32,000 bases of DNA from Pseudoalteromonas translucida KMM 520 (GTDB lineage: Bacteria; Pseudomonadota; Gammaproteobacteria; Enterobacterales; Alteromonadaceae): the NCBI RefSeq assembly GCF_001465295.1, contig NZ_CP011034.1:180001-212000 (forward strand), given 5' to 3'. The notes under the pieces are model-generated. The model was not told where the DNA came from, searched no databases, and was given only the letters and a program-made list of their open reading frames with translations. This document shows, in pieces, positions 2,975-28,212 of this stretch. How positions within the stretch are numbered: the stretch's first letter is position 1; each line of letters begins with the position of its first letter. A program made the translations under genes and the position numbers.

Positions 2975-4009
2975 TTAAAGTAAATCGGTAAGTAATATAC
3001 CTACGCCAATGCGTTCTATATCAGCGTTGTAATCAATTAAGCTTTCGCCATAGCCATTAAAGTACTGTGCATAACCACGCACTCGGCCCCAAAGCGGAAA
3101 TGACCAATCGAGCTGTAAAGCACCGCGATTGTCTGAATTTAAGTTGTTACGGGTCATAAAGCTAAATTCATGTTCATTAAGGCGATACGCACCGCTAAAC
3201 TCAAAGTAACCCATGTATTTGTAAATGTCAGGGTTGTCGTCGCCCCTTGGATCTAAAGGTGTTTCTTTCTCGCTTTCTGAAATACGATACCAAGGCTTAA
3301 AGTTAAATACAAAGCCATTTTTTTCCCAAATAAAGTTAGCGTAAATACGGTTCCATGAACGTGAGTTTGGCTGGCTATTACCGTTAGACTGATGCGAAAT
3401 ACCCAAAACAACAGCCATTTCGTCGCCCCAAGGAACGTGCTCTTGATCTAAATAGTTAACCCAAAAAATTTCTGGCTCGTAGTTGGTCTCACGAAATGGT
3501 GATGAGCTTTCTTTGTTATAAAGCTGCCAATATGACTGTAGTGTAAAGGCAAAAAATATAGCTTGGTCTTCATCAGAAAAGTCATTGAAGAGAGGGACCT
3601 TAATTGAAAGCTGATACTTGGCTTCTAAGTTATCGAGTGGCTCGTCATTTTTTTCGCCAGTTAGCTCGTCGAATGTTTCAAATGAGCTATTGTTCGGATG
3701 CGATACATACGAGATAGGTAAAATGTAGTTACGTTTATGTGGTGTAATAACATTACGGTTTTTTTGGCTTACTGCTTCACGTGCTTTGCGCTTATCGATA
3801 GCGGTAAGCTGTTTATCTTCTTCAAGAGCGGAGCATTTTTTACGAAGCTGGTTGAGTGTTTGCTTGCCGTCTCCACCAATCACTTCATTTAAAATACATT
3901 GTTTTACCAGCTCAATATTACTATTTTGCTCATTGCTTTTAGGTTTTTCTTCAGCAAAAACAGTAGTACTAACTAATGTTGAAAGTATGATCAAGTATCG
4001 CCAGCTCAT
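2975..4009 (-). CDS. pldA: Outer-membrane phospholipase A (PldA)
   Basis: 344-aa ORF with an N-terminal signal peptide (MSWRYLIILSTLVSTTVFA). It carries the catalytic HxSNG motif (GISHQSNGNS), a beta-barrel-like alternating pattern and a C-terminal aromatic-rich end. Confidence 0.88.
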   Translation of the reverse strand: MSWRYLIILSTLVSTTVFAEEKPKSNEQNSNIELVKQCILNEVIGGDGKQTLNQLRKKCSALEEDKQLTAIDKRKAREAVSQKNRNVITPHKRNYILPISYVSHPNNSSFETFDELTGEKNDEPLDNLEAKYQLSIKVPLFNDFSDEDQAIFFAFTLQSYWQLYNKESSSPFRETNYEPEIFWVNYLDQEHVPWGDEMAVVLGISHQSNGNSQPNSRSWNRIYANFIWEKNGFVFNFKPWYRISESEKETPLDPRGDDNPDIYKYMGYFEFSGAYRLNEHEFSFMTRNNLNSDNRGALQLDWSFPLWGRVRGYAQYFNGYGESLIDYNADIERIGVGILLTDLL

Positions 4010-4127
4010 TGTAATTCCTTTGTGAGTATTGATGGTTTAATGCGTTAATTTAATTATAACGCCTTTTTACATATGTAACGGTGAACTTTTACTGAATTTA
4101 CGTATATTTTGTATAATTAGATCAAAA

Positions 4128-4150
4128 TAAAAGCGGCCTAAGCCGCTTTT
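4128..4150 (-). terminator. Rho-independent terminator ending the riboswitch operon
   Basis: AAAA-GCGGC-ctaa-GCCGC-TTTT. On the minus strand the stem is followed by TTTTATTTT. It lies 54 nt downstream of the AstE-like stop. Confidence 0.8.
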
Positions 4151-4203
4151 ATAATGCAAATTAACTATAGTTAACTTACTCTCACGCAATGAGAAGGGAG
4201 AGC

Positions 4204-5322
4204 TTAAAGCTCAAATACGTTAGTAAAAAATTTATACAGTTCAGTGCCTTGGTTAACACTCGCCGAGGCAAAGTGCAGTATGGCAATAGCATCACATTCA
4301 AGGGAAAGTGTTTGTAGTGGCTGTTCACTTAAATAACGCTCCATGCGCAGTATTTTAGCAATTGGCTCACCTGCTTTAATATGCGCGCCTAGGGGGGCAA
4401 TATACTCAACCATTCCGCCCATGGGCGCGTAATAAGCAAAGTAATCATTTAAATGACACGCGTAGCGAGTAATGTTAGCCGGCGTGTGGGGTGCATTTTC
4501 AAATACGGCTTTATAATTTAAGTAACTTAAAATACTGTTTGCATCGTTTAGTGCTTCGCTCAAATCTATTTTTTCTTGGCTGCCTAGCTCTACAGTAAAA
4601 GCTTCTACAGGTATGCTTAGCTCGCGACCTTGCTTGCTCAGTGCTTCGTTTAAATGCCACCAGGGGCAAAAGTTAGCTTCATCCATAGCGCCGTCAAAAT
4701 CACTAGGAATAAGCAGTACGTGCTCAATATTAAAATACCGAGCGCTATTAGCCGCATAGGTTGGGCAGTACAAATGTTTGCTTGAAATAGGACCTGTGTG
4801 TAAATCCAGTACTATATCGGCTTGGTGAGCGAGCTTTTGTAAGTTAAGCGCAATGCGTTTACCTGTATTGAGTAAATAAGCAGGGCCGTTGAGTTTGCTG
4901 TCAACTTCGTCAATAAGTGCCTGTTTAAACGTGCTTTTTAATGTGGCATCGTCGTATTGCGTATGGTTTTTTGCAAACTGAGTGACTAACTCAGTATTAT
5001 AATGATACATCCTATTCCAATTAGTGCCGGTGATAGGGTCGAACCGACCTAAAGTAAATTCCCCCGACTTTTGATTACAACCAATAGGGTTGGCATAGGG
5101 CACTAAAGTAATATCACCTTTAAGATTGAGGTGCTTTAATTGTTCAAGTAGTTGAAAAATTACCGCATTACCTTGTACTTCAGCCCCGTGCATGTTGGCC
5201 TGAATATACACACTTGGCCCCGTGCCATCGCCTTTTAAACGATACACAGGAATAGTGAGAGGTAAGCCATTGGCAACTTCACCAACGACGATGTTTTCTT
5301 GACTAATTGGTGAGGCGATCAT
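4204..5322 (-). CDS. Succinylglutamate desuccinylase/aspartoacylase (AstE/AspA) family zinc deacylase, M14-like
   Basis: 372-aa ORF. It has the N-terminal zinc motif HGxExxG (ANMHGAEVQGN) and a downstream DLHTGP, typical of the AstE/AspA family. It is the last gene of the L-box operon, not of the ast operon. Confidence 0.8.
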   Translation of the reverse strand: MIASPISQENIVVGEVANGLPLTIPVYRLKGDGTGPSVYIQANMHGAEVQGNAVIFQLLEQLKHLNLKGDITLVPYANPIGCNQKSGEFTLGRFDPITGTNWNRMYHYNTELVTQFAKNHTQYDDATLKSTFKQALIDEVDSKLNGPAYLLNTGKRIALNLQKLAHQADIVLDLHTGPISSKHLYCPTYAANSARYFNIEHVLLIPSDFDGAMDEANFCPWWHLNEALSKQGRELSIPVEAFTVELGSQEKIDLSEALNDANSILSYLNYKAVFENAPHTPANITRYACHLNDYFAYYAPMGGMVEYIAPLGAHIKAGEPIAKILRMERYLSEQPLQTLSLECDAIAILHFASASVNQGTELYKFFTNVFEL

Positions 5323-5343
5323 GAGTATCTCAACATTTTAATT

Positions 5344-5399
5344 TTATCTCGGGTACTTTATTTTAGGTACATTATCTTAGGTAAATTATCTCAAGTAAT
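5344..5399. repeat. Four tandem copies of a degenerate 14-nt unit (TTATCTYRGGTAMW)
   Basis: Copies sit at 5344, 5358, 5372 and 5386 with an exact 14-nt period: TTATCTCGGGTACT / TTATTTTAGGTACA / TTATCTTAGGTAAA / TTATCTCAAGTAAT. Pairwise identity is 10-12 of 14. They fill the spacer between the decarboxylase and deacylase genes, and the last copy covers the decarboxylase stop codon. Confidence 0.75.
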
Positions 5400-6591
5400 A
5401 ACTGGCATCTTCGGCTGCACGTAGGCAGCTAAGTTTGTTTTGTTCTAAAACATATTCGCCTGCAAGTTCGTGGCATAAAAAGTACGGCATACTTTCACTA
5501 AAACCATAGGCACCACATTGACTAAACACCAACCAGTCGTGCTCATTTAGATCACTTGGTAATGCGTGCTCGCCCAAGCAATCGAGTGCGGTACAAAGTG
5601 GCCCGTATAAGCTCATAGCTTGGGTTGGTGTGTTTGAATCTCGTAGTAACGCTGCTGGAAAGTCTTGACTAGTGACGGCTGGGCGCAATAAGTGGTTTAT
5701 ACCGCCACTTAAAATAACTTGTTGTTGGCCATAGTTTTGTTTTCGCTCTACTACTGGGGTCGCGTAATGTCCGCATTCACCCACGGCATAGCGGCCAAGC
5801 TCCATCCATAACTCTTCAACGCCCGCCTGTTTTTTAATTTTAGCGAGGGCAGTTATTAAGTCATCCCAATTAAGCGTTATGTCGTTTTGCGTATACGGAA
5901 TACCCAAGCCGCCACCTAAATCTAAAATTTTAAGGTTTATATTTAAATCGCGAGCAAGCTGGCTAAGTGGTGCAATCATTTGTGACCACAACTCACTGAG
6001 TTTTTGCGTGCTGAGCATATTTCCCCATTGAAAAATATGCAGGCCATCAAAGCTAAGTGCGTCATAGTCGGTAATATTAAGTGCCTGCCACTCTGTACAA
6101 CCGAGTCCAAATGGCGTGAGGCTATCGCCACCTAGTGGATTTTTTTCGCCCTCGGGCCAACGTAACTGTACGCGCAGTAATACCTGTAGTTGACAGTTTT
6201 GTAGCTTGGCTTGCTCATTGAGCCAGCGAACTTGATTAATACTTTCGGCAACAAAAGTACGTACGCCGCGCTCAATAAAGTGTTTAATTTGTTTTGGGCT
6301 TTTAGCTGGCCCGGTGTTGAGCACGCGATCGCTACTAACGCCTTGAGCAAGTACTTGCTCAAGCTCGCCTTTACTGGCTACGTCAAAATTAAACCCGGCG
6401 TTATCTAAGCATTGAATAATTTTAGACAGTGGATTTGCTTTAACCGCATACCACAGTTTTACCTCGGTTTGTGCGACCAATTGTGCCAAGTGATTATTTA
6501 GCGTATCTAGGTCGTAAACAAAAAATGGGCTATCGAGTTGGCTTGATAATTCATTAATTGCCGTTTTAACGCCCGTGCTCAAAAAGCTCAT
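5386..6591 (-). CDS. Fold-type III (alanine-racemase-fold) PLP-dependent decarboxylase, LysA/ODC family, divergent
   Basis: 401-aa ORF with the PLP-lysine motif WYAVKANP, the Gly loop LGGGLGIPY, ELGRY and CGAYGF. Two other family motifs deviate (see findings). Its start overlaps the dapD-like stop as TAATG. Confidence 0.8.
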   Translation of the reverse strand: MSFLSTGVKTAINELSSQLDSPFFVYDLDTLNNHLAQLVAQTEVKLWYAVKANPLSKIIQCLDNAGFNFDVASKGELEQVLAQGVSSDRVLNTGPAKSPKQIKHFIERGVRTFVAESINQVRWLNEQAKLQNCQLQVLLRVQLRWPEGEKNPLGGDSLTPFGLGCTEWQALNITDYDALSFDGLHIFQWGNMLSTQKLSELWSQMIAPLSQLARDLNINLKILDLGGGLGIPYTQNDITLNWDDLITALAKIKKQAGVEELWMELGRYAVGECGHYATPVVERKQNYGQQQVILSGGINHLLRPAVTSQDFPAALLRDSNTPTQAMSLYGPLCTALDCLGEHALPSDLNEHDWLVFSQCGAYGFSESMPYFLCHELAGEYVLEQNKLSCLRAAEDASYYLR

Positions 6592-7331
6592 TAACGTAAA
6601 ACCTCTTCAAGTAGTAATGATGCATCACTTTGCTCATCGCGGTACTTAACAATTAACGCGCACGACATGCTTAAACCTTGTGCACGCGCCCATTCGTTTG
6701 AAGCAGGGCGAGAGCCTGGTATTACAATAGCGTACTCAGGAATTGGCTCGCCTTTATCAAGTTGGCGCTCGTTTACACAGTCGTATACCGGAATCGTGGC
6801 CGATAAACGTACACCAGGAGCAAGCACTGCGCCTTTTTTAATTACTACACCTTCAACAATTACGCAGCCTGCGCCAATAAATGCATCATCTTCAACTACC
6901 ACTGGGCTGGCACCAATTGGCTCTAACACACCACCAAGTTGCACGGCTGCGCTAAGGTGTACATTTTTACCTACTTGCGCACACGAGCCAACTAAAGCGT
7001 GGCTATCTACCATAGTGCCTTCGTCAATGTATGCGCCAATATTTACATACGCTGGTGGCATAATAATAGTGCCTTTAGCTACATAAGCACCACGGCGCAC
7101 GCTTGAGCCACCCGGGACCATACGTACGCCATCGGTGGCACTAAACTGTTGTGGCGCTAAGTTATGTTTATCAACAAAGCCACCGGCAAATTCGGTGTTT
7201 GTACCATTTTTAAAGGCTTCTAAAATACCTTGTTTTACTGCAACGTTAGCCTGCCATTGGCCGCTTTCGTTTTGTGATGCTGCGCGTACTGCGCCCGACT
7301 CTAAATTATTTAATAGTTCTAACCAGCTCAT
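6591..7331 (-). CDS. dapD: 2,3,4,5-tetrahydropyridine-2,6-dicarboxylate N-succinyltransferase-like (short DapD paralogue)
   Basis: 246-aa ORF. The left-handed beta-helix hexapeptide region MPPAYVNIGAYIDEGTMVDSHALVGSCAQVGKNVHLSAAVQLGGVLEP is near-identical in pattern to E. coli DapD ([47 protein letters not shown], from memory). It is about 30 aa shorter at the N-terminus. Confidence 0.85.
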   Translation of the reverse strand: MSWLELLNNLESGAVRAASQNESGQWQANVAVKQGILEAFKNGTNTEFAGGFVDKHNLAPQQFSATDGVRMVPGGSSVRRGAYVAKGTIIMPPAYVNIGAYIDEGTMVDSHALVGSCAQVGKNVHLSAAVQLGGVLEPIGASPVVVEDDAFIGAGCVIVEGVVIKKGAVLAPGVRLSATIPVYDCVNERQLDKGEPIPEYAIVIPGSRPASNEWARAQGLSMSCALIVKYRDEQSDASLLLEEVLR

Positions 7332-7346
7332 TATAAAAACCTATGT

Positions 7347-8231
7347 TTAATGCCAAGATAAAATGGTGTTGTTTGCTTGTTCAATGCACGTTGTTTGCGT
7401 TAATTCGAGGTGAGTTAACGGGGGGCGTAAATACGAACTCGTTAATCGCCCTTGTAAATGCATGAGTACTTTAACGGGAATGGGGTTTGCTACAGTGAAC
7501 AAGCTACTGATTGCGCTTGACCACTGAGTAAATAAATTGGGGTATTGGCCACTTAGGCTACGCTGTACAAATTCGTGAGTTTGTAGCGGCCAAGCATTAG
7601 CTGCTACCGATACCAGTCCTTTAGCACCGGCTTGGGCAAAGTAGGGCATAAGCGCATCATCGCCGCTAAAAATAGCTAAGTTAGGAGCCGCTTGACGGTA
7701 AGCTTCAAATTGCGCAATGTTGCCACTGGCTTCTTTAAGTGCCCATAGGTTTTTATGTTGCTGTAGGTTTTGAATGGTTGCTACTGGAATATCGACAGCG
7801 CTTCGCCCTGGTACGTTATAAAGCATACAAGGGTGTTTACTTATATTTAAAAGGCTTTCAAACCAATGGGTTTGTCCAATTACACCGGGCTTTGCATAAA
7901 GCGGCGAGCCAAGTAAAAAACTATGAATAGGCAGGTGGTTACAGTATTCAACCCAGGCTAATTGCTGTTTGAGGTTCATACCACCTACAGCCACCATTAA
8001 GGGTACATTAGGTGATAATTGGCACACGTGCTCAACAATGGCTTGTTGCTCTTTAAGTGTTAAGGCTAAGCCTTCACCTGTGCTGCCTAGTAATAAAATG
8101 GCATTATTAGCAGCAGCTTGCTCAGCAACCAAAGTGGTTAAGGTGCCATAGTCGATTGTACCGTTTTGATTAAACGGAGTAACGAGCGCCGTCCAGACTG
8201 AGTAGTCATCTAAATTAAAGTTTTTGATCAT
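7347..8231 (-). CDS. dapA: 4-hydroxy-tetrahydrodipicolinate synthase (DapA family)
   Basis: 294-aa ORF with GSTGEG (E. coli GTTGES), LYNVPGRS (E. coli YNVPSRT, including the semialdehyde-binding Arg) and ALKEASGN (the Schiff-base Lys of GIKEATGN). It is the first gene after the L-box leader. Confidence 0.88.
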   Translation of the reverse strand: MIKNFNLDDYSVWTALVTPFNQNGTIDYGTLTTLVAEQAAANNAILLLGSTGEGLALTLKEQQAIVEHVCQLSPNVPLMVAVGGMNLKQQLAWVEYCNHLPIHSFLLGSPLYAKPGVIGQTHWFESLLNISKHPCMLYNVPGRSAVDIPVATIQNLQQHKNLWALKEASGNIAQFEAYRQAAPNLAIFSGDDALMPYFAQAGAKGLVSVAANAWPLQTHEFVQRSLSGQYPNLFTQWSSAISSLFTVANPIPVKVLMHLQGRLTSSYLRPPLTHLELTQTTCIEQANNTILSWH

Positions 8232-8387
8232 CTCTCGCGAACTTATAGAATGTTCGGCGAGTTAAGAAGCTATATAGGAAAGAGCCGCATTAACATCGTT
8301 CGAACAAATACCCACGTGTAGGGTATGTTATAATTCGAAGAGCGAATGGGCTTAAATAATAGGGCGCACGGCCTTATTATACTAAGA

Positions 8388-8577
8388 CCAGAAGCTCTCC
8401 ACCAAACTAATAAGCTACGTTTAAATAGCTATTGGTGACAGTCGCTAGGATTCAACCTAGTCGCCCGAAACAACAATGACACAAACATTGTTGTTTCTCG
8501 GCGTTAATTCCCCTTACGTATGCTCAATGGAGTTTGTGCTCCTAACATACGCTACCTGAATAACGCACCTCTTCCAG
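8388..8577 (-). promoter_or_regulatory. Lysine riboswitch (L-box) aptamer in the 5' leader of the dapA-like operon
   Basis: The minus strand reads CUGGAAG-AGAGGUGCGUUA...AGGUAGCGUAUG..GGAGCACAAACUCC..CAUACGUAAGGGGAAUUAACGCCGAGAAACAACAAUG-uuugugu-CAUUGUUGUUUCGGGCGA-CUAGG-uugaau-CCUAG-CGACUGUCACCAA...UUGGUG-GAGAG-CUUCUGG. The conserved AGAGGUGC, GGAG, AAGGGGA, CGCCGAG, CUGUCA and GAGAG blocks are all present. Helices P1-P5 can be drawn, including a perfect 12-bp P3. The layout parallels the E. coli lysC leader as I recall it. Confidence 0.88.
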
Positions 8578-8634
8578 CCCTTTATATTTGTACTGCAAGC
8601 AATACAAATATAATTAAATAGGGTAAGTGCGATG

Positions 8635-8664
8635 ATTAAATCATTTTAGCCATCTGGGTGTCAA
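8635..8664 (-). promoter_or_regulatory. Candidate sigma70 promoter for the L-box operon
   Basis: The minus strand has TTGACA (8664-8659), an 18-nt spacer and TTTAAT (8640-8635) preceded by TGa (extended -10). This puts a predicted start about 50 nt upstream of riboswitch P1. It is a sequence match only. Confidence 0.4.
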
Positions 8665-9492: not shown

Positions 9493-10902
9493 ATGAATTT
9501 AATGCCAAGGTACAGACAAGTAGCCGACAATTTTGCAATTGAAGATCGCCCATCTAAGGTGGCCGCCCCACAGCTATTACTCTGGAACGACAGCTTAGCT
9601 AAAGCGTTTAATATTAATGTAGCTCCTGAGTTACGGGCCAGTACTTTTGGCGGCAACGAACAGCAAGCAATTGCAGCGGTTGCACTAGGATACTCAGGGC
9701 ATCAATTTGGACATTTTTCACCACGCTTAGGCGATGGGCGTGCTCATTTGCTAGGTGCAGTAGCGGATGCGCAAAACCAGTTGTGGGACATTCAATTAAA
9801 AGGCTCTGGTGCCACTCCTTACTCTCGTGGTGGCGATGGCCGCTGTGCACTTGGCCCAGCAATACGTGAATATATAATGAGCGAAGCAATGCAAGCGTTA
9901 GGTGTTAAAACCACGCGATGCTTAGCTGTGGTTGGTAGTGGCGAAACCGTGTACCGAAACCCACCTCAACCTGGTGCTATTGTAACGCGCCTAGCCAGTA
10001 GCCACATTCGTGTTGGCTCGTTTCAGTATTTAGCAACACAAGGCGACGTTGCAGGGCTTAAAAACCTTGCCGACTTAGCTATTGAGCGTCATTACCCAAA
10101 AATTCAAACTACAGGACCTGAGCGTTATTTAGCATTTTTAGCTGCAGTGATTAAAAACCAAGTTGAGCTGGTGGTTAGTTGGATGCGAGTAGGCTTTATA
10201 CATGGCGTAATGAATACCGATAATACGCTGGTTAGCGGCGAAACTATCGATTATGGCCCATGCGCCATGATGAATAGCTTTGATTTTGATACCGTGTTTA
10301 GCTCTATTGATAAGCAAGGGCGTTATGCATTTGGTAATCAACCTAATATTGCTAATTGGAACTGCGCCCGCTTAGCTGAGAGTTTAATACCGCTTGTAAA
10401 TGATGACGACGAACAAGCTGTGGCATTAATGACCCCAATAATAGATAGTTTTGCTGAACAATTTAATGCTGAATTTAGTGCAATGTGGGCAACTAAGCTA
10501 GGCTTAGCAGGTACAGATACAGCCGATAAAGAGTTAATTTCAGAGCTATTACAGTTATTAAAAGAGCATCAACTCGACTACACCAATACGTTTGATGCAC
10601 TAACCGAGTCTTTAACAGGTGCAATGAGCATACCAGGGGCATTAGTTCAGTGGGCCGGTAAGTGGCAAAAACGCACCGATGATCGCAGCTATACAGTAAT
10701 GCGCGTAGCTAATCCGCGAGTTATTCCTCGTAACCATGTGATCGAAAAAATACTTAGTGAGTATAATAAGGCTGGCTCAAGTGAATTACTGCATGAGTTT
10801 ATGCAGGTCATGCACACACCTTATGAAAATACTGACAAATTGGCAAAATTTCAGGATGCACCTAGCAGTGATAAAGAGTATTATACTTTTTGTGGTACTT
10901 AA
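9493..10902 (+). CDS. selO: Protein adenylyltransferase SelO (YdiU/UPF0061)
   Basis: 469-aa ORF with GYSGHQFGHFSPRLGDGRAHLLG, LKGSGATPYSRGGDGRCALGPAIREYIMSEAM and GFIHGVMNTDN, the pseudokinase-fold SelO signature blocks. It starts 9 nt after the Tag-like stop. Confidence 0.92.
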   Translation: MNLMPRYRQVADNFAIEDRPSKVAAPQLLLWNDSLAKAFNINVAPELRASTFGGNEQQAIAAVALGYSGHQFGHFSPRLGDGRAHLLGAVADAQNQLWDIQLKGSGATPYSRGGDGRCALGPAIREYIMSEAMQALGVKTTRCLAVVGSGETVYRNPPQPGAIVTRLASSHIRVGSFQYLATQGDVAGLKNLADLAIERHYPKIQTTGPERYLAFLAAVIKNQVELVVSWMRVGFIHGVMNTDNTLVSGETIDYGPCAMMNSFDFDTVFSSIDKQGRYAFGNQPNIANWNCARLAESLIPLVNDDDEQAVALMTPIIDSFAEQFNAEFSAMWATKLGLAGTDTADKELISELLQLLKEHQLDYTNTFDALTESLTGAMSIPGALVQWAGKWQKRTDDRSYTVMRVANPRVIPRNHVIEKILSEYNKAGSSELLHEFMQVMHTPYENTDKLAKFQDAPSSDKEYYTFCGT

Positions 10903-24394: not shown

Positions 24395-25624
<1,230 letters not shown>

Positions 25625-25645
25625 TAGCCAAACAATATCTATTAA

Positions 25646-25664
25646 GGGCAAACTTAGTTTGCCC
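25646..25664 (+). terminator. Intercistronic hairpin between astC and astA (possible partial terminator/attenuator)
   Basis: GGGCAAAC-tta-GTTTGCCC, a perfect 8-bp stem 22 nt after the astC stop, followed by TCTAATTTTAATTT. Confidence 0.45.
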
Positions 25665-25709
25665 TCTAATTTTAATTTACCGTTATATTATAAGGGAGTA
25701 AGCGGGTTT

Positions 25710-28212
<2,503 letters not shown>

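What the first reader, a model, noticed from the sequence alone, without database searches (positions are those of the whole stretch)
4128..8664. Lysine-riboswitch-controlled dapA / short dapD / divergent decarboxylase / AstE-family deacylase operon: candidate non-canonical end of the succinylase lysine pathway
Seen in sequence: four co-directional minus-strand genes sit behind one L-box and in front of one strong terminator (4128-4150).

The junctions are tight. There are 15 nt from the dapA-like stop to the dapD-like start. The dapD-like stop overlaps the decarboxylase start as TAATG. A 63-nt repeat-filled spacer precedes the deacylase.

The DapA-like protein keeps its catalytic motifs, and the DapD-like protein keeps the E. 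coli-type hexapeptide core. The operon has no dapB, dapC, dapE or dapF. Its last two genes are not the canonical DapE (M20 peptidase) and LysA. They are a motif-divergent fold-type III decarboxylase and an AstE/AspA-family zinc deacylase.

Established knowledge: L-boxes switch lysine biosynthesis and transport genes off when lysine is bound. Characterised AstE/AspA-family enzymes hydrolyse N-acyl amino acids (N2-succinylglutamate, N-acetylaspartate; N-acetyl-diaminobutyrate for DoeB).

Inference, hypothesis H1: the deacylase replaces DapE on N-succinyl-LL-DAP.

Inference, hypothesis H2 (more interesting): the decarboxylase removes the carboxylate at the free-amine L-centre of N-succinyl-LL-DAP to give N2-succinyl-L-lysine. 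The AstE-like enzyme then desuccinylates it, chemically parallel to AstE. This would bypass DapE, DapF and LysA. The missing aminotransferase step could be supplied by astC/argD (24419-25624), since E. coli ArgD also has N-succinyl-DAP aminotransferase activity.

I do not know of a description of such a cassette, and I cannot search to confirm novelty.
Basis: partly seen in the sequence, partly recalled or inferred. Interest (0 to 1): 0.75.

Follow-up and report, generated by a model that had tools for sequence, protein, structure and literature searches.

The report
Lysine-riboswitch operon: candidate meso-DAP-bypassing lysine branch
A lysine-sensing RNA switch in a marine Pseudoalteromonas controls four genes whose last three (a DapD copy, a decarboxylase that is not LysA, and a deacylase that is not DapE) travel together in lysine operons of several bacterial phyla and probably form an undescribed last stretch of lysine synthesis.

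Summary
A lysine riboswitch (8384-8581, 104.8 bits) precedes minus-strand dapA2, short dapD2, a fold-type-III decarboxylase and an AstE/CphZ-like zinc deacylase, and a strong terminator follows.

The operon was already listed in 2017 as "dapA-dapD-lysA-hypothetical", with no proposed function. New here: dapD-decarboxylase-deacylase is a conserved block. It occurs in 75 of 80 Alteromonadales loci, in Ferrimonas, Halobacteriovorax, an Opitutia genome and unnamed lineages. It often sits in 7-8 gene asd-lysC-(aminotransferase)-dapB-dapA-dapD-dec-deacylase operons, many behind lysine riboswitches, and never next to dapF, dapE or a second lysA.

The decarboxylase keeps LysA's two arginines for the distal carboxylate. 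The glutamate that binds DAP's free distal amine is an invariant threonine. The deacylase keeps the acidic Lys/Arg side-chain pocket of cyanophycin dipeptidase CphZ.

Main counter-evidence: the deacylase persists without the decarboxylase nearby, as riboswitch-lysC-deacylase in Shewanella and riboswitch-dapA-deacylase elsewhere. Rival step orders remain open. Nothing has been tested biochemically.

The parts
8635..8664 (-). Promoter-like TTGACA (8659-8664), 18-nt spacer, TGaTTTAAT extended -10 (8635-8643)
   Evidence: Read directly. The consensus scan did not report it because its -10 rule requires A at position 2. Unverified.
8384..8581 (-). Lysine riboswitch (L-box) aptamer
   Evidence: Rfam RF00168, 104.8 bits, E=3.7e-27, full length. 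Homologous aptamers lie upstream of the operon in 78 of 80 related loci.
8232..8383 (-). Expression platform / leader. It has no intrinsic terminator. A conserved GCUCUUCGAA element and a CGAAC...GUUCG hairpin abut the AGAG-AUG start region.
   Evidence: The conserved element is complementary both to the aptamer 3' strand (GAGAGC) and to UUCG..AGAG at the start codon. Lysine-OFF translational control is inferred, not shown; no covariation was found.
7347..8231 (-). dapA2: 4-hydroxy-tetrahydrodipicolinate synthase paralogue
   Evidence: TIGR00674 259 bits, above the 206 cut-off. Catalytic T45/Y107/Y133/R138/K161 equivalents are kept. The E. coli allosteric lysine-site residues are not kept.
6591..7331 (-). 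dapD2: tetrahydrodipicolinate N-succinyltransferase, N-terminally short (246 aa)
   Evidence: NF008808 299 bits, above 204; TIGR00965 189, below 375. The closest solved structures are succinyltransferases 6CKT, 1KGQ and 3BXY (165-173 bits), against 75-90 bits for acetyltransferases. It aligns from residue ~35 of those proteins. It is 83-98% identical across Pseudoalteromonas.
5386..6591 (-). dec: fold-type-III PLP decarboxylase of a distinct non-LysA family (motifs H-x-F-Q-W-G and C-T-x-L-D). Proposed N-succinyl-DAP decarboxylase.
   Evidence: K51 is the PLP lysine. R267 and R303 correspond to TmDAPDC R249 and R285. T334 replaces E315. In every locus where the upstream DNA is held, dapD lies immediately upstream (the only exception is L091, a 3.2-kb contig that starts just before dec); a deacylase gene is adjacent in every locus examined.
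5323..5385 (-). 63-nt intergenic spacer with three imperfect ~12-nt direct repeats
   Evidence: In other Pseudoalteromonas loci the decarboxylase and deacylase matches lie about 10-30 nt apart, and they overlap or abut in L056 and L058. The longer spacer is therefore probably strain-specific.
4204..5322 (-). deac: AstE/AspA-family (M14-like) zinc deacylase, orthologue of PDB 3FMC and 3LWU. Proposed N2-succinyl-L-lysine desuccinylase.
   Evidence: PF24827; 3FMC 439 bits, 3LWU 434 bits, AbCphZ 8EIN 94 bits. H45/E48/H175 (Zn), E245, R93/N103/R104 and D214/E215 are invariant in all lineages.
4127..4152 (-). Intrinsic terminator closing the operon
   Evidence: 11-bp stem, 4-nt loop, T-run.
24419..25624 (+). 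astC/argD-type transaminase: candidate supplier of the N-succinyl-amino-oxopimelate transamination step (not part of the operon)
   Evidence: NF003468 'acetylornithine/succinyldiaminopimelate transaminase' 732 bits, above 522. It is followed by astA and astD. The link to the cassette is inference only.

Best explanation
The cassette is a lysine-repressible, lysine-dedicated end of the succinylase DAP pathway.

Proposed steps:
1. DapA2 and DapD2 push flux to N-succinyl-L-2-amino-6-oxopimelate. Both activities are assigned from family models only. DapA2 lacks the E. coli lysine feedback site and so would be controlled by the riboswitch instead.
2. A transaminase encoded elsewhere makes N-succinyl-LL-DAP. 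It would be ArgD/AstC-type in this organism, and a BCAT-like enzyme encoded inside the operon in some lineages.
3. The LysA-like decarboxylase removes the carboxylate at the free-amine end and gives N2-succinyl-L-lysine.
4. The AstE/CphZ-like zinc hydrolase removes succinate and releases L-lysine.

The succinyl group would thus serve as a protecting group up to the last step. DapE, DapF, meso-DAP and LysA are bypassed, so lysine synthesis can be switched by lysine without touching peptidoglycan DAP supply.

What is shown: the gene identities, riboswitch linkage, synteny across phyla and residue patterns. What is inferred: both substrate assignments, the order of the last two steps, the transaminase, and the OFF logic of the switch.
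For: 1. A real lysine riboswitch precedes the operon. Riboswitches also precede the block in Colwelliaceae, Ferrimonas, Halobacteriovorax and two unnamed lineages.

2. The decarboxylase family is distinct.
- There is a score gap from 238 to 211 bits among 50%-identity representatives.
- It scores below the LysA equivalog cut-off.
- Its best solved relatives are BtrK and SbnH, which decarboxylate L-amino acids whose distal group is acylated (enzyme roles from my knowledge; ranking).

3. Mapped on T. maritima LysA (sequence verified against 2YXX):
- The PLP lysine and both distal-carboxylate arginines are invariant (R249 to R267, R285 to R303).
- E315, which binds DAP's free distal amine, is an invariant Thr.
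- The E315T mutant of that enzyme loses most DAP activity and prefers 2-aminopimelate, which has no distal amine (PMC8277567).
- About 60 of 68 canonical LysA genes caught in the same metagenome scan show a C-E-[S/T/C]-x-D motif. In the others my pattern match missed the motif or landed elsewhere; one (L122) read CTPND.

4. The deacylase keeps AbCphZ's zinc ligands, catalytic Glu, alpha-carboxylate triad and the D-E pocket that binds the Lys/Arg side-chain cation, in every lineage. CphZ's Asp181, one of two residues near the aspartyl moiety of its substrate, is Gly here (DLHTG). That fits an acyl group lacking the aspartyl alpha-amino group, if D181 is what contacts that amine (my inference).

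5. dapD-dec-deacylase is syntenic in 75 of 80 Alteromonadales loci and in Ferrimonas, Halobacteriovorax, L089, L090 (Opitutia), L092, L171 and L172.
- The Opitutia operon asd-lysC-AT-dapB-dapA-dapD-dec-deac would encode every step from aspartate to lysine under this model.
- Across 94 loci (1.54 Mb) there is no dapF and no second LysA. By contrast, 10 of 68 canonical lysA loci have dapF adjacent.

6. The decarboxylase is never found without an adjacent deacylase gene: AstE-like everywhere, or an M20 amidohydrolase in L088. That is expected if its product is a dead end until deacylated.

7. Rationale: the ancestral gammaproteobacterial dapF-lysA operon cannot be lysine-regulated because dapF is essential (PMC1480536).
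Against: - The deacylase is retained without dapD2 or dec nearby in at least four places of its tree: all Shewanella examined (riboswitch-lysC-deacylase), L061 and L075 and L065 (riboswitch-dapA2-deacylase), and L079 and L081 (alone). So it has a use that does not need this decarboxylase. That fits a role on the ordinary intermediate N-succinyl-LL-DAP, or lysine salvage from other N2-acyl-lysines. I could not check whether a decarboxylase copy lies elsewhere in those genomes.
- The Thr and double-Arg pattern is also found in neighbouring decarboxylase clades of unknown substrate, so it is not unique to this family.
- The CphZ-Asp181 position is Asp, not Gly, in L090 and L092, and Lys364 is not conserved in distant members.
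- AbCphZ itself does not cleave N2-succinyl-arginine.
- I could not establish whether canonical dapE, dapF and lysA are present in these genomes.
- There are no enzymatic, genetic or expression data.
Confidence: 0.45

Rival explanations
1. Reversed order (H4). The AstE-like enzyme is a DapE analogue that desuccinylates N-succinyl-LL-DAP. The decarboxylase then acts on an L-centre of LL-DAP and gives L-lysine directly, bypassing only DapF and LysA.
For: - It explains every gene context, including the deacylase kept without the decarboxylase in Shewanella, L061, L065, L075, L079 and L081. N-succinyl-LL-DAP exists in any succinylase-pathway organism.
- It explains complete operons lacking dapF.
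- The nearest solved relatives of the decarboxylase, BtrK and SbnH, act on L-centres (ranking; enzyme roles from my knowledge).
- In L088 the deacylase slot is taken by a TIGR01891 M20 amidohydrolase. The alternative DapE of Bacteroidota is likewise a metal-dependent amidohydrolase, distantly related to N-acetyl-DAP deacetylase.
Against: - LL-DAP has a free distal amine, yet the family has an invariant Thr where nearly all canonical LysA genes sampled have Glu. E315T cripples DAP use in TmDAPDC.
- The deacylase pocket carries two invariant acids and no conserved extra cation for DAP's distal carboxylate.
- If LL-DAP were the substrate, the decarboxylase would not need its own deacylase wherever DapE exists, yet the two are always adjacent.
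Confidence: 0.2
2. Plain paralogue set. The deacylase is a second DapE and the decarboxylase is a divergent meso-DAP decarboxylase. DapF and the transaminase come from housekeeping genes. The cassette only adds lysine-repressible capacity to the normal pathway.
For: - The 2017 survey and many database records name the decarboxylase lysA or diaminopimelate decarboxylase.
- TIGR01048 still scores 200 bits, and the distal-carboxylate arginines are kept.
- Deacylase-only contexts fit a DapE-like role.
Against: - The decarboxylase scores below the LysA equivalog cut-off.
- The Glu that reads the distal amine is lost in all members.
- dapF is never in these operons, even in 7-8 gene versions holding every other step. 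It is next to canonical lysA in 10 of 68 control loci and is included in the Thermotogae lysine operons listed.
Confidence: 0.15
3. The deacylase is a CphZ-type beta-Asp-Lys/Arg dipeptidase, or a general N2-acyl-lysine hydrolase, that salvages lysine when lysine is scarce. Its linkage to dapD and the decarboxylase is regulatory rather than a shared intermediate.
For: - PMC9974463 judged 3FMC and 3LWU 'likely CphZs' from conserved Arg and Asp pockets and noted cyanophycinases in those Shewanella species.
- The Arg/Lys pocket and catalytic residues are conserved.
- It explains riboswitch-lysC-deacylase in Shewanella.
Against: - Only 28% identity to AbCphZ.
- CphZ Asp181 is Gly in most members.
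- No cyanophycin genes were seen in any of the annotated loci.
- The tight, often overlapping dapD-dec-deacylase order in distant phyla is hard to explain by shared regulation alone.
- This reading is compatible with H2 if the enzyme accepts both acyl groups.
Confidence: 0.1

Closest known systems
Succinylase branch of the diaminopimelate pathway (DapD, DapC/ArgD, DapE, DapF, LysA)
   Same: It starts from tetrahydrodipicolinate with a bona fide DapD-type succinyltransferase. It needs a transaminase, then a desuccinylation and a PLP decarboxylation, to reach lysine. It is lysine-regulated.
   Different: The desuccinylase is not an M20 DapE and the decarboxylase is not LysA. No DapF is associated. 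Under the preferred model, decarboxylation precedes desuccinylation and meso-DAP is never formed.
LysA, meso-diaminopimelate decarboxylase (TIGR01048; e.g. T. maritima 2YXX)
   Same: Same fold and two Pfam domains. Same PLP lysine, catalytic Cys and Asp of the C-x-x-x-D loop, and both arginines for the distal carboxylate.
   Different: 200 bits against a 298 cut-off. Glu315 becomes Thr, the PLP-stacking His becomes Phe, Ser182 becomes Gly, and there is a family motif H-x-F-Q-W-G. It is never next to dapF.
BtrK (2J66/7RU7) and SbnH (6KNH): fold-III decarboxylases acting on L-amino acids whose distal group is acylated (enzyme roles from my knowledge)
   Same: They are the best-scoring solved relatives (120 and 111 bits) and share the C-T-x-x-D loop. 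The proposed substrate has the same logic: an amino acid with an acylated distal function.
   Different: BtrK and SbnH lack the R303 equivalent (Ala and Leu) and have Glu instead of Asp70. No carrier protein or siderophore genes lie nearby. The context is lysine biosynthesis.
CphZ cyanophycin dipeptide hydrolase (AbCphZ 8EIN; PaAotO) and AstE N2-succinylglutamate desuccinylase
   Same: Same AstE/AspA catalytic domain, H-E-H zinc site, catalytic Glu, R/N/R alpha-carboxylate clamp, and the D-E pocket for a cationic Lys/Arg side chain. N2-succinyl-lysine differs from CphZ's substrate beta-Asp-Lys only by lacking one amino group.
   Different: 28% identity to AbCphZ. Asp181 is Gly in most members. 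There is no hit to AstE equivalog models. It is encoded in lysine operons and riboswitch regulons, not in cyanophycin or AST clusters.
Protect-modify-deprotect routes (N-acetyl or N-succinyl ornithine in arginine synthesis; LysW-linked lysine synthesis ending with LysK)
   Same: An alpha-amino protecting group would be carried to the last step and removed by a metallo-amidohydrolase to release the basic amino acid (established pathway logic; the analogy is inference).
   Different: Different enzymes and carbon skeleton. Here the protecting group is the succinyl group already installed by DapD.

Membership tests
Lysine riboswitch (Rfam RF00168) | Covariance-model score above the gathering threshold over the full aptamer | tested here: met
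   104.8 bits against 30, model positions 1-182.
Lysine riboswitch (Rfam RF00168) | Lysine-dependent switching of downstream expression (OFF) | tested here: inconclusive
   No terminator lies between the aptamer and the start codon. Conserved complementary elements suggest start-site sequestration, but no covariation was found. An experiment is needed.
DapA (TIGR00674) | Equivalog score above the cut-off, and the catalytic Lys/Tyr/Arg/Thr set | tested here: met
   259 bits, above 206. K161, Y133, Y107, R138 and T45 equivalents are present.
DapA (E. coli-type, lysine-inhibited) | Allosteric lysine-site residues S48, A49, H53, H56, N80, E84, Y106 | tested here: not met
   The aligned residues are G, L, L, Q, M, Q, L. 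Lack of feedback inhibition is inferred.
DapD succinyltransferase | Family model above the cut-off, and closer to succinyl- than to acetyl-transferases | tested here: met
   NF008808 299, above 204. Succinyltransferase structures score 165-173 bits against 75-90 for DapH. TIGR00965 is not reached (189, below 375), and about 35 N-terminal residues are absent.
LysA meso-DAP decarboxylase (TIGR01048) | Equivalog score above the curated cut-off | tested here: not met
   200.5, below 297.9.
LysA meso-DAP decarboxylase | Glu of the C-E-S-x-D loop that binds the free distal amine of DAP | tested here: not met
   Thr334 is invariant in 16 family representatives. The C-E motif was read in about 60 of 68 canonical LysA control loci.
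LysA meso-DAP decarboxylase | Two arginines binding the distal carboxylate (Tm R249, R285), and the PLP lysine | tested here: met
   R267, R303 and K51 are invariant.
DapE (M20 N-succinyl-LL-DAP desuccinylase) | M20 peptidase fold and family models | tested here: not met
   The deacylase shows only PF24827 and a weak M14 hit, with no M20 or DapE model. Whether it has DapE-like activity was not testable.
AstE (N2-succinylglutamate desuccinylase) | AstE/AspA catalytic domain | tested here: met
   PF24827, 96.7 bits, above 25.
AstE (N2-succinylglutamate desuccinylase) | Equivalog-level match and an AST operon context | tested here: not met
   No AstE model hit; the only hit is DoeB at 32.8, below 402.7. 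The window's astC-astA-astD operon is 16 kb away and separate.
CphZ (beta-Asp-Arg/Lys dipeptidase) | Zn ligands, catalytic Glu, R/N/R carboxylate clamp, D222/E223 cation pocket | tested here: met
   H45/E48/H175, E245, R93/N103/R104 and D214/E215 are invariant.
CphZ (beta-Asp-Arg/Lys dipeptidase) | Asp181 and Lys366 contacting the aspartyl moiety; linkage to cyanophycin genes | tested here: not met
   The Asp181 equivalent is Gly177 (Asp only in L090 and L092). The Lys366 equivalent could not be aligned and Lys364 is variable. No cyanophycin genes occur in the annotated loci.

The most novel reading that the evidence does not exclude
A further, undescribed variant of bacterial lysine biosynthesis. 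N-succinyl-LL-DAP is decarboxylated by a dedicated non-LysA fold-III enzyme to N2-succinyl-L-lysine. An AstE/CphZ-like zinc hydrolase (the family of the orphan structures 3FMC and 3LWU) then desuccinylates it. Lysine is made without DapE, DapF, meso-DAP or LysA. The module is spread across Gammaproteobacteria, Bdellovibrionota, Verrucomicrobiota and other lineages and is usually under a lysine riboswitch.
Probability: 0.42. Interest if true: 0.85.

Novelty: new variant of a known kind. Interest (0 to 1): 0.75.

Why it matters
- **Pathway knowledge.** Lysine and DAP synthesis is a textbook pathway and an antibiotic target. Its known variants (succinylase, acetylase, dehydrogenase, DapL aminotransferase) all pass through meso-DAP and end with LysA. 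A route that leaves the pathway at N-succinyl-DAP and never makes meso-DAP would add a new branch.
- **Regulation.** It would show how cells separate lysine supply from cell-wall DAP supply so that lysine can regulate one without harming the other.
- **Annotation.** It would give a function to two orphan crystal structures and to a large set of "PLP-dependent decarboxylase" and "succinylglutamate desuccinylase family" annotations. It would correct "lysA" calls in many marine genomes and change pathway-gap predictions.
- **Applications.** It would offer new enzymes (an N-acyl-DAP decarboxylase and an N2-succinyl-lysine hydrolase) for lysine engineering.
- **If a rival order is right.** The module would still be a non-homologous replacement of DapE and LysA.

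Tried and rejected
- **Third protein search.** The search with the decarboxylase returned only Pseudoalteromonas orthologues, so it could not show whether Shewanella has the enzyme.
- **Metagenome scan.** The scan with the family alignment mostly caught canonical LysA, because one search pattern was generic. Only L091 and L092 were family members. I reused the rest as a LysA control set.
- **Canonical dap genes.** Three literature attempts to establish canonical dapE, dapF and lysA in Pseudoalteromonas or Shewanella found nothing usable.
- **Expression platform.** Single-sequence and alignment folding gave only a small invariant hairpin and no covariation. In one search the window row started too far downstream and was misaligned. 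ON versus OFF therefore rests on analogy.
- **Lys366 of AbCphZ.** It could not be aligned; HMMER alignments stop at residue 323 even with a profile.
- **GapMind 2026 alternative DapE.** I checked whether it is the same enzyme. It is an unrelated M20-type amidohydrolase of Bacteroidota.
- **PLP-dependent DAP epimerase.** I considered that the 'decarboxylase' might be one, like DapF2/Alr2. I rejected this as unlikely because it carries both decarboxylase-family domains and the catalytic Cys loop.
- **Direct decarboxylation of ring-opened tetrahydrodipicolinate followed by transamination.** Rejected, because it would need neither DapD nor a deacylase.
- **Structure prediction.** Not run. Coordinates are not returned, and close crystal structures already exist.

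Full report

Yes. Four minus-strand ORFs lie at 7347-8231, 6591-7331, 5386-6591 and 4204-5322.

Rfam finds one element in the whole 32-kb window. It is a full-length lysine riboswitch aptamer at 8384-8581 on the minus strand (104.8 bits, E=3.7e-27).

- DapA: TIGR00674 259 bits, above the 206 cut-off.
- DapD: NF008808 299 bits, above 204. It is N-terminally short and stays below the TIGR00965 cut-off.
- An Orn/DAP/Arg-type PLP decarboxylase that does not reach the LysA equivalog cut-off (200.5 against 297.9).
- An AstE/AspA-domain protein: PF24827, 96.7 bits.

The junctions are as stated: a 15-nt gap, a TAATG overlap, and a 63-nt spacer carrying three imperfect ~12-nt repeats. An 11-bp terminator hairpin with a T-run lies at 4127-4152.

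The organism is a Pseudoalteromonas. The deacylase is 93% identical to proteins of P. arctica, P. fuliginea and P. distincta.

**2. What is already known**

A 2017 survey of lysine riboswitches lists exactly this operon for P. haloplanktis TAC125 and Pseudoalteromonas sp. as "dapA-dapD-lysA-hypothetical1-hypothetical2". It also notes a riboswitch before dapD in Colwellia. It offers no functional idea (PMC5584792).

The deacylase has two orphan crystal structures from Shewanella, 3FMC and 3LWU (439 and 434 bits; ~54-55% identity over the aligned length). [quoted passage not shown] The authors of that work guessed that 3FMC and 3LWU are CphZs too (PMC9974463).

Searches for an N2-succinyl-lysine route found nothing. 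The 2026 GapMind update does not contain these enzymes. Its alternative DapE is an unrelated M20-type amidohydrolase.

**3. Comparative genomics**

A scan of species-representative genomes with the deacylase returned 80 loci, from Pseudoalteromonas, Thalassotalea, Colwellia and relatives. Their gene content and riboswitches:

| Arrangement | Loci |
|---|---|
| riboswitch-dapA2-dapD2-dec-deacylase | 69 |
| riboswitch-dapD2-dec-deacylase | 6 |
| riboswitch-dapA2-deacylase | 3 |
| deacylase alone, no riboswitch | 2 |

In Shewanella the orthologue directly follows, or overlaps, the riboswitch-controlled lysC.

Searching 50%-identity representatives with the decarboxylase shows a compact family: about 20 clusters at 40-56% identity, then a drop from 238 to 211 bits.

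Looking up members of that family gave further contexts:

| Locus / organism | Arrangement |
|---|---|
| Ferrimonas marina | riboswitch-lysC-dapD-dec-deacylase |
| Halobacteriovorax | riboswitch-lysC-dapB-dapA-dapD-dec-deacylase |
| L092, L171 | riboswitch-asd-lysC-dapB-dapA-dapD-dec-deacylase |
| L089 | the same seven genes, no riboswitch found |
| L172 | dapB-dapA-dapD-dec-deacylase |
| L090, Opitutia single-cell genome | asd-lysC-AT-dapB-dapA-dapD-dec-deacylase |
| L088, 1.1-Mb contig | asd-lysC-AT-dapA-dapD-dec, with a convergent M20 amidohydrolase |

"AT" in the last two rows is a BCAT-like class-IV aminotransferase.

Across the 94 loci (1.54 Mb) there is no dapF and no second LysA. In the control set of 68 canonical lysA loci, caught by the same metagenome scan, dapF is adjacent in 10.

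**4. Residue evidence for the decarboxylase**

I recalled the T. maritima LysA sequence and verified it against 2YXX. I then aligned it with 16 family representatives, BtrK and SbnH.

| T. maritima LysA | This family | Role, or note |
|---|---|---|
| K46 | K51, kept | PLP lysine |
| C314, D318 | kept | Catalytic loop |
| Y343 | kept | Binds the PLP phosphate |
| R249, R285 | R267, R303, invariant | Distal carboxylate; BtrK and SbnH lack the second |
| E315 | Thr, invariant | Binds the free distal amine of DAP |

Experimentally, E315T removes most DAP activity and makes 2-aminopimelate the preferred substrate (PMC8277567).

The pattern fits a DAP-like substrate whose distal amine is blocked. 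In an operon with DapD, that points to N-succinyl-DAP.

One caveat applies. Neighbouring clades of unknown function share the Thr and double-Arg pattern.

**5. Residue evidence for the deacylase**

All members, from every lineage and context, keep the following:
- the zinc ligands and the catalytic Glu;
- the R/N/R clamp for an alpha-carboxylate;
- the Asp-Glu pair that in AbCphZ binds the cationic end of Arg or Lys.

That predicts a basic amino acid as product. Lysine fits this better than DAP, whose distal end also carries a carboxylate.

CphZ's Asp181, one of two residues within hydrogen-bonding distance of the aspartyl moiety, is Gly in most members. This fits a succinyl group. It is Asp in two distant members, and the C-terminal Lys is variable. 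The acyl-side argument is therefore weak.

**6. Other parts**

- DapA2 keeps its catalytic residues but not the E. coli allosteric lysine site. It is probably controlled only through the riboswitch.
- DapD2 is clearly of the succinyltransferase type.
- The leader has no terminator. It has conserved elements that could sequester the start region when the aptamer closes. This is unproven.

**7. Weighing the models**

The decarboxylase-then-deacylase order (H2) is supported by:
- both residue patterns;
- the decarboxylase never occurring without an adjacent deacylase gene;
- the completeness of the 7-8 gene operons without dapF.

A deacylase tree argues against a strict form of H2. Decarboxylase-less contexts are nested among decarboxylase-linked ones at four or more places. 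The deacylase is therefore useful on its own.

That is natural if it acts on N-succinyl-LL-DAP (H4 and H1). It is also natural if it releases lysine from other N2-acyl-lysines such as beta-Asp-Lys.

I could not check the rest of those genomes.

My estimates are H2 about 0.45, H4 about 0.2, H1 about 0.15 and salvage-only about 0.1.

With much higher confidence (about 0.8), the block is a lysine-dedicated terminal module that replaces DapE and LysA with non-homologous or divergent enzymes.

A plausible selective reason comes from PMC1480536. The ancestral dapF-lysA operon cannot be lysine-regulated because dapF is essential.

**8. Verdict**

- The operon as such is already catalogued. The pathway proposal and the cross-phylum module appear undescribed in the literature I could search.
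- It is a new variant of a known pathway, directly testable with a few enzyme assays and complementations.

Noticed in passing
L088:6496-7368 and L090:3755-4624: A BCAT-like class-IV aminotransferase (NF005146 and TIGR01122 above cut-off) sits inside the lysine operon in two unrelated lineages. The two proteins are 51% identical to each other. It is a candidate non-canonical DapC for this module.
   Followed up: partly
L093:203-4178 (also L095): A high-GC metagenome contig carries dapB-dapA-dapD followed by a more distant decarboxylase (31% identity, HVFGAS and C-S-G-L-D motifs). No deacylase lies downstream. The DapD-decarboxylase linkage may therefore extend beyond the family studied.
   Followed up: partly
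window 7347-8231: DapA2 and its operon-linked relatives lack the E. coli allosteric lysine-binding residues and have Ser for Thr44. Feedback-insensitive DapA under riboswitch control is a likely design.
   Followed up: partly
window 5323-5385: Three imperfect ~12-nt direct repeats fill the decarboxylase-deacylase spacer. Other Pseudoalteromonas loci have a much shorter gap there. Function unknown.
   Followed up: no
window 24419-28212: Arginine succinyltransferase pathway operon astC-astA-astD, all well above the family cut-offs. No astE lies next to it.
   Followed up: partly
window 2975-4009 and 9493-10902: The flanking genes are a PldA-like outer-membrane phospholipase A (220 bits, below its cut-off) and a SelO/YdiU protein adenylyltransferase. 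The 2017 paper's 'hypothetical2' is probably the phospholipase gene, which lies beyond the terminator.
   Followed up: no
L026, L028, L029, L035, L038, L039, L041, L048, L053 (about 3.5-4.5 kb upstream, opposite strand): Several Pseudoalteromonas loci have a class-IV aminotransferase gene (about 34% identical to the Opitutia operon enzyme) near the cassette. The window does not.
   Followed up: no
L067:4235-5491 and L079:6759-7964: A conserved ~400-aa ORF of unknown function lies just upstream of the riboswitch (L067) or of the lone deacylase (L079) in Colwelliaceae.
   Followed up: no
L083:5643-8107: In Shewanella the lysC stop and the deacylase start overlap by one base. This indicates translational coupling of aspartokinase and the deacylase.
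   Followed up: partly
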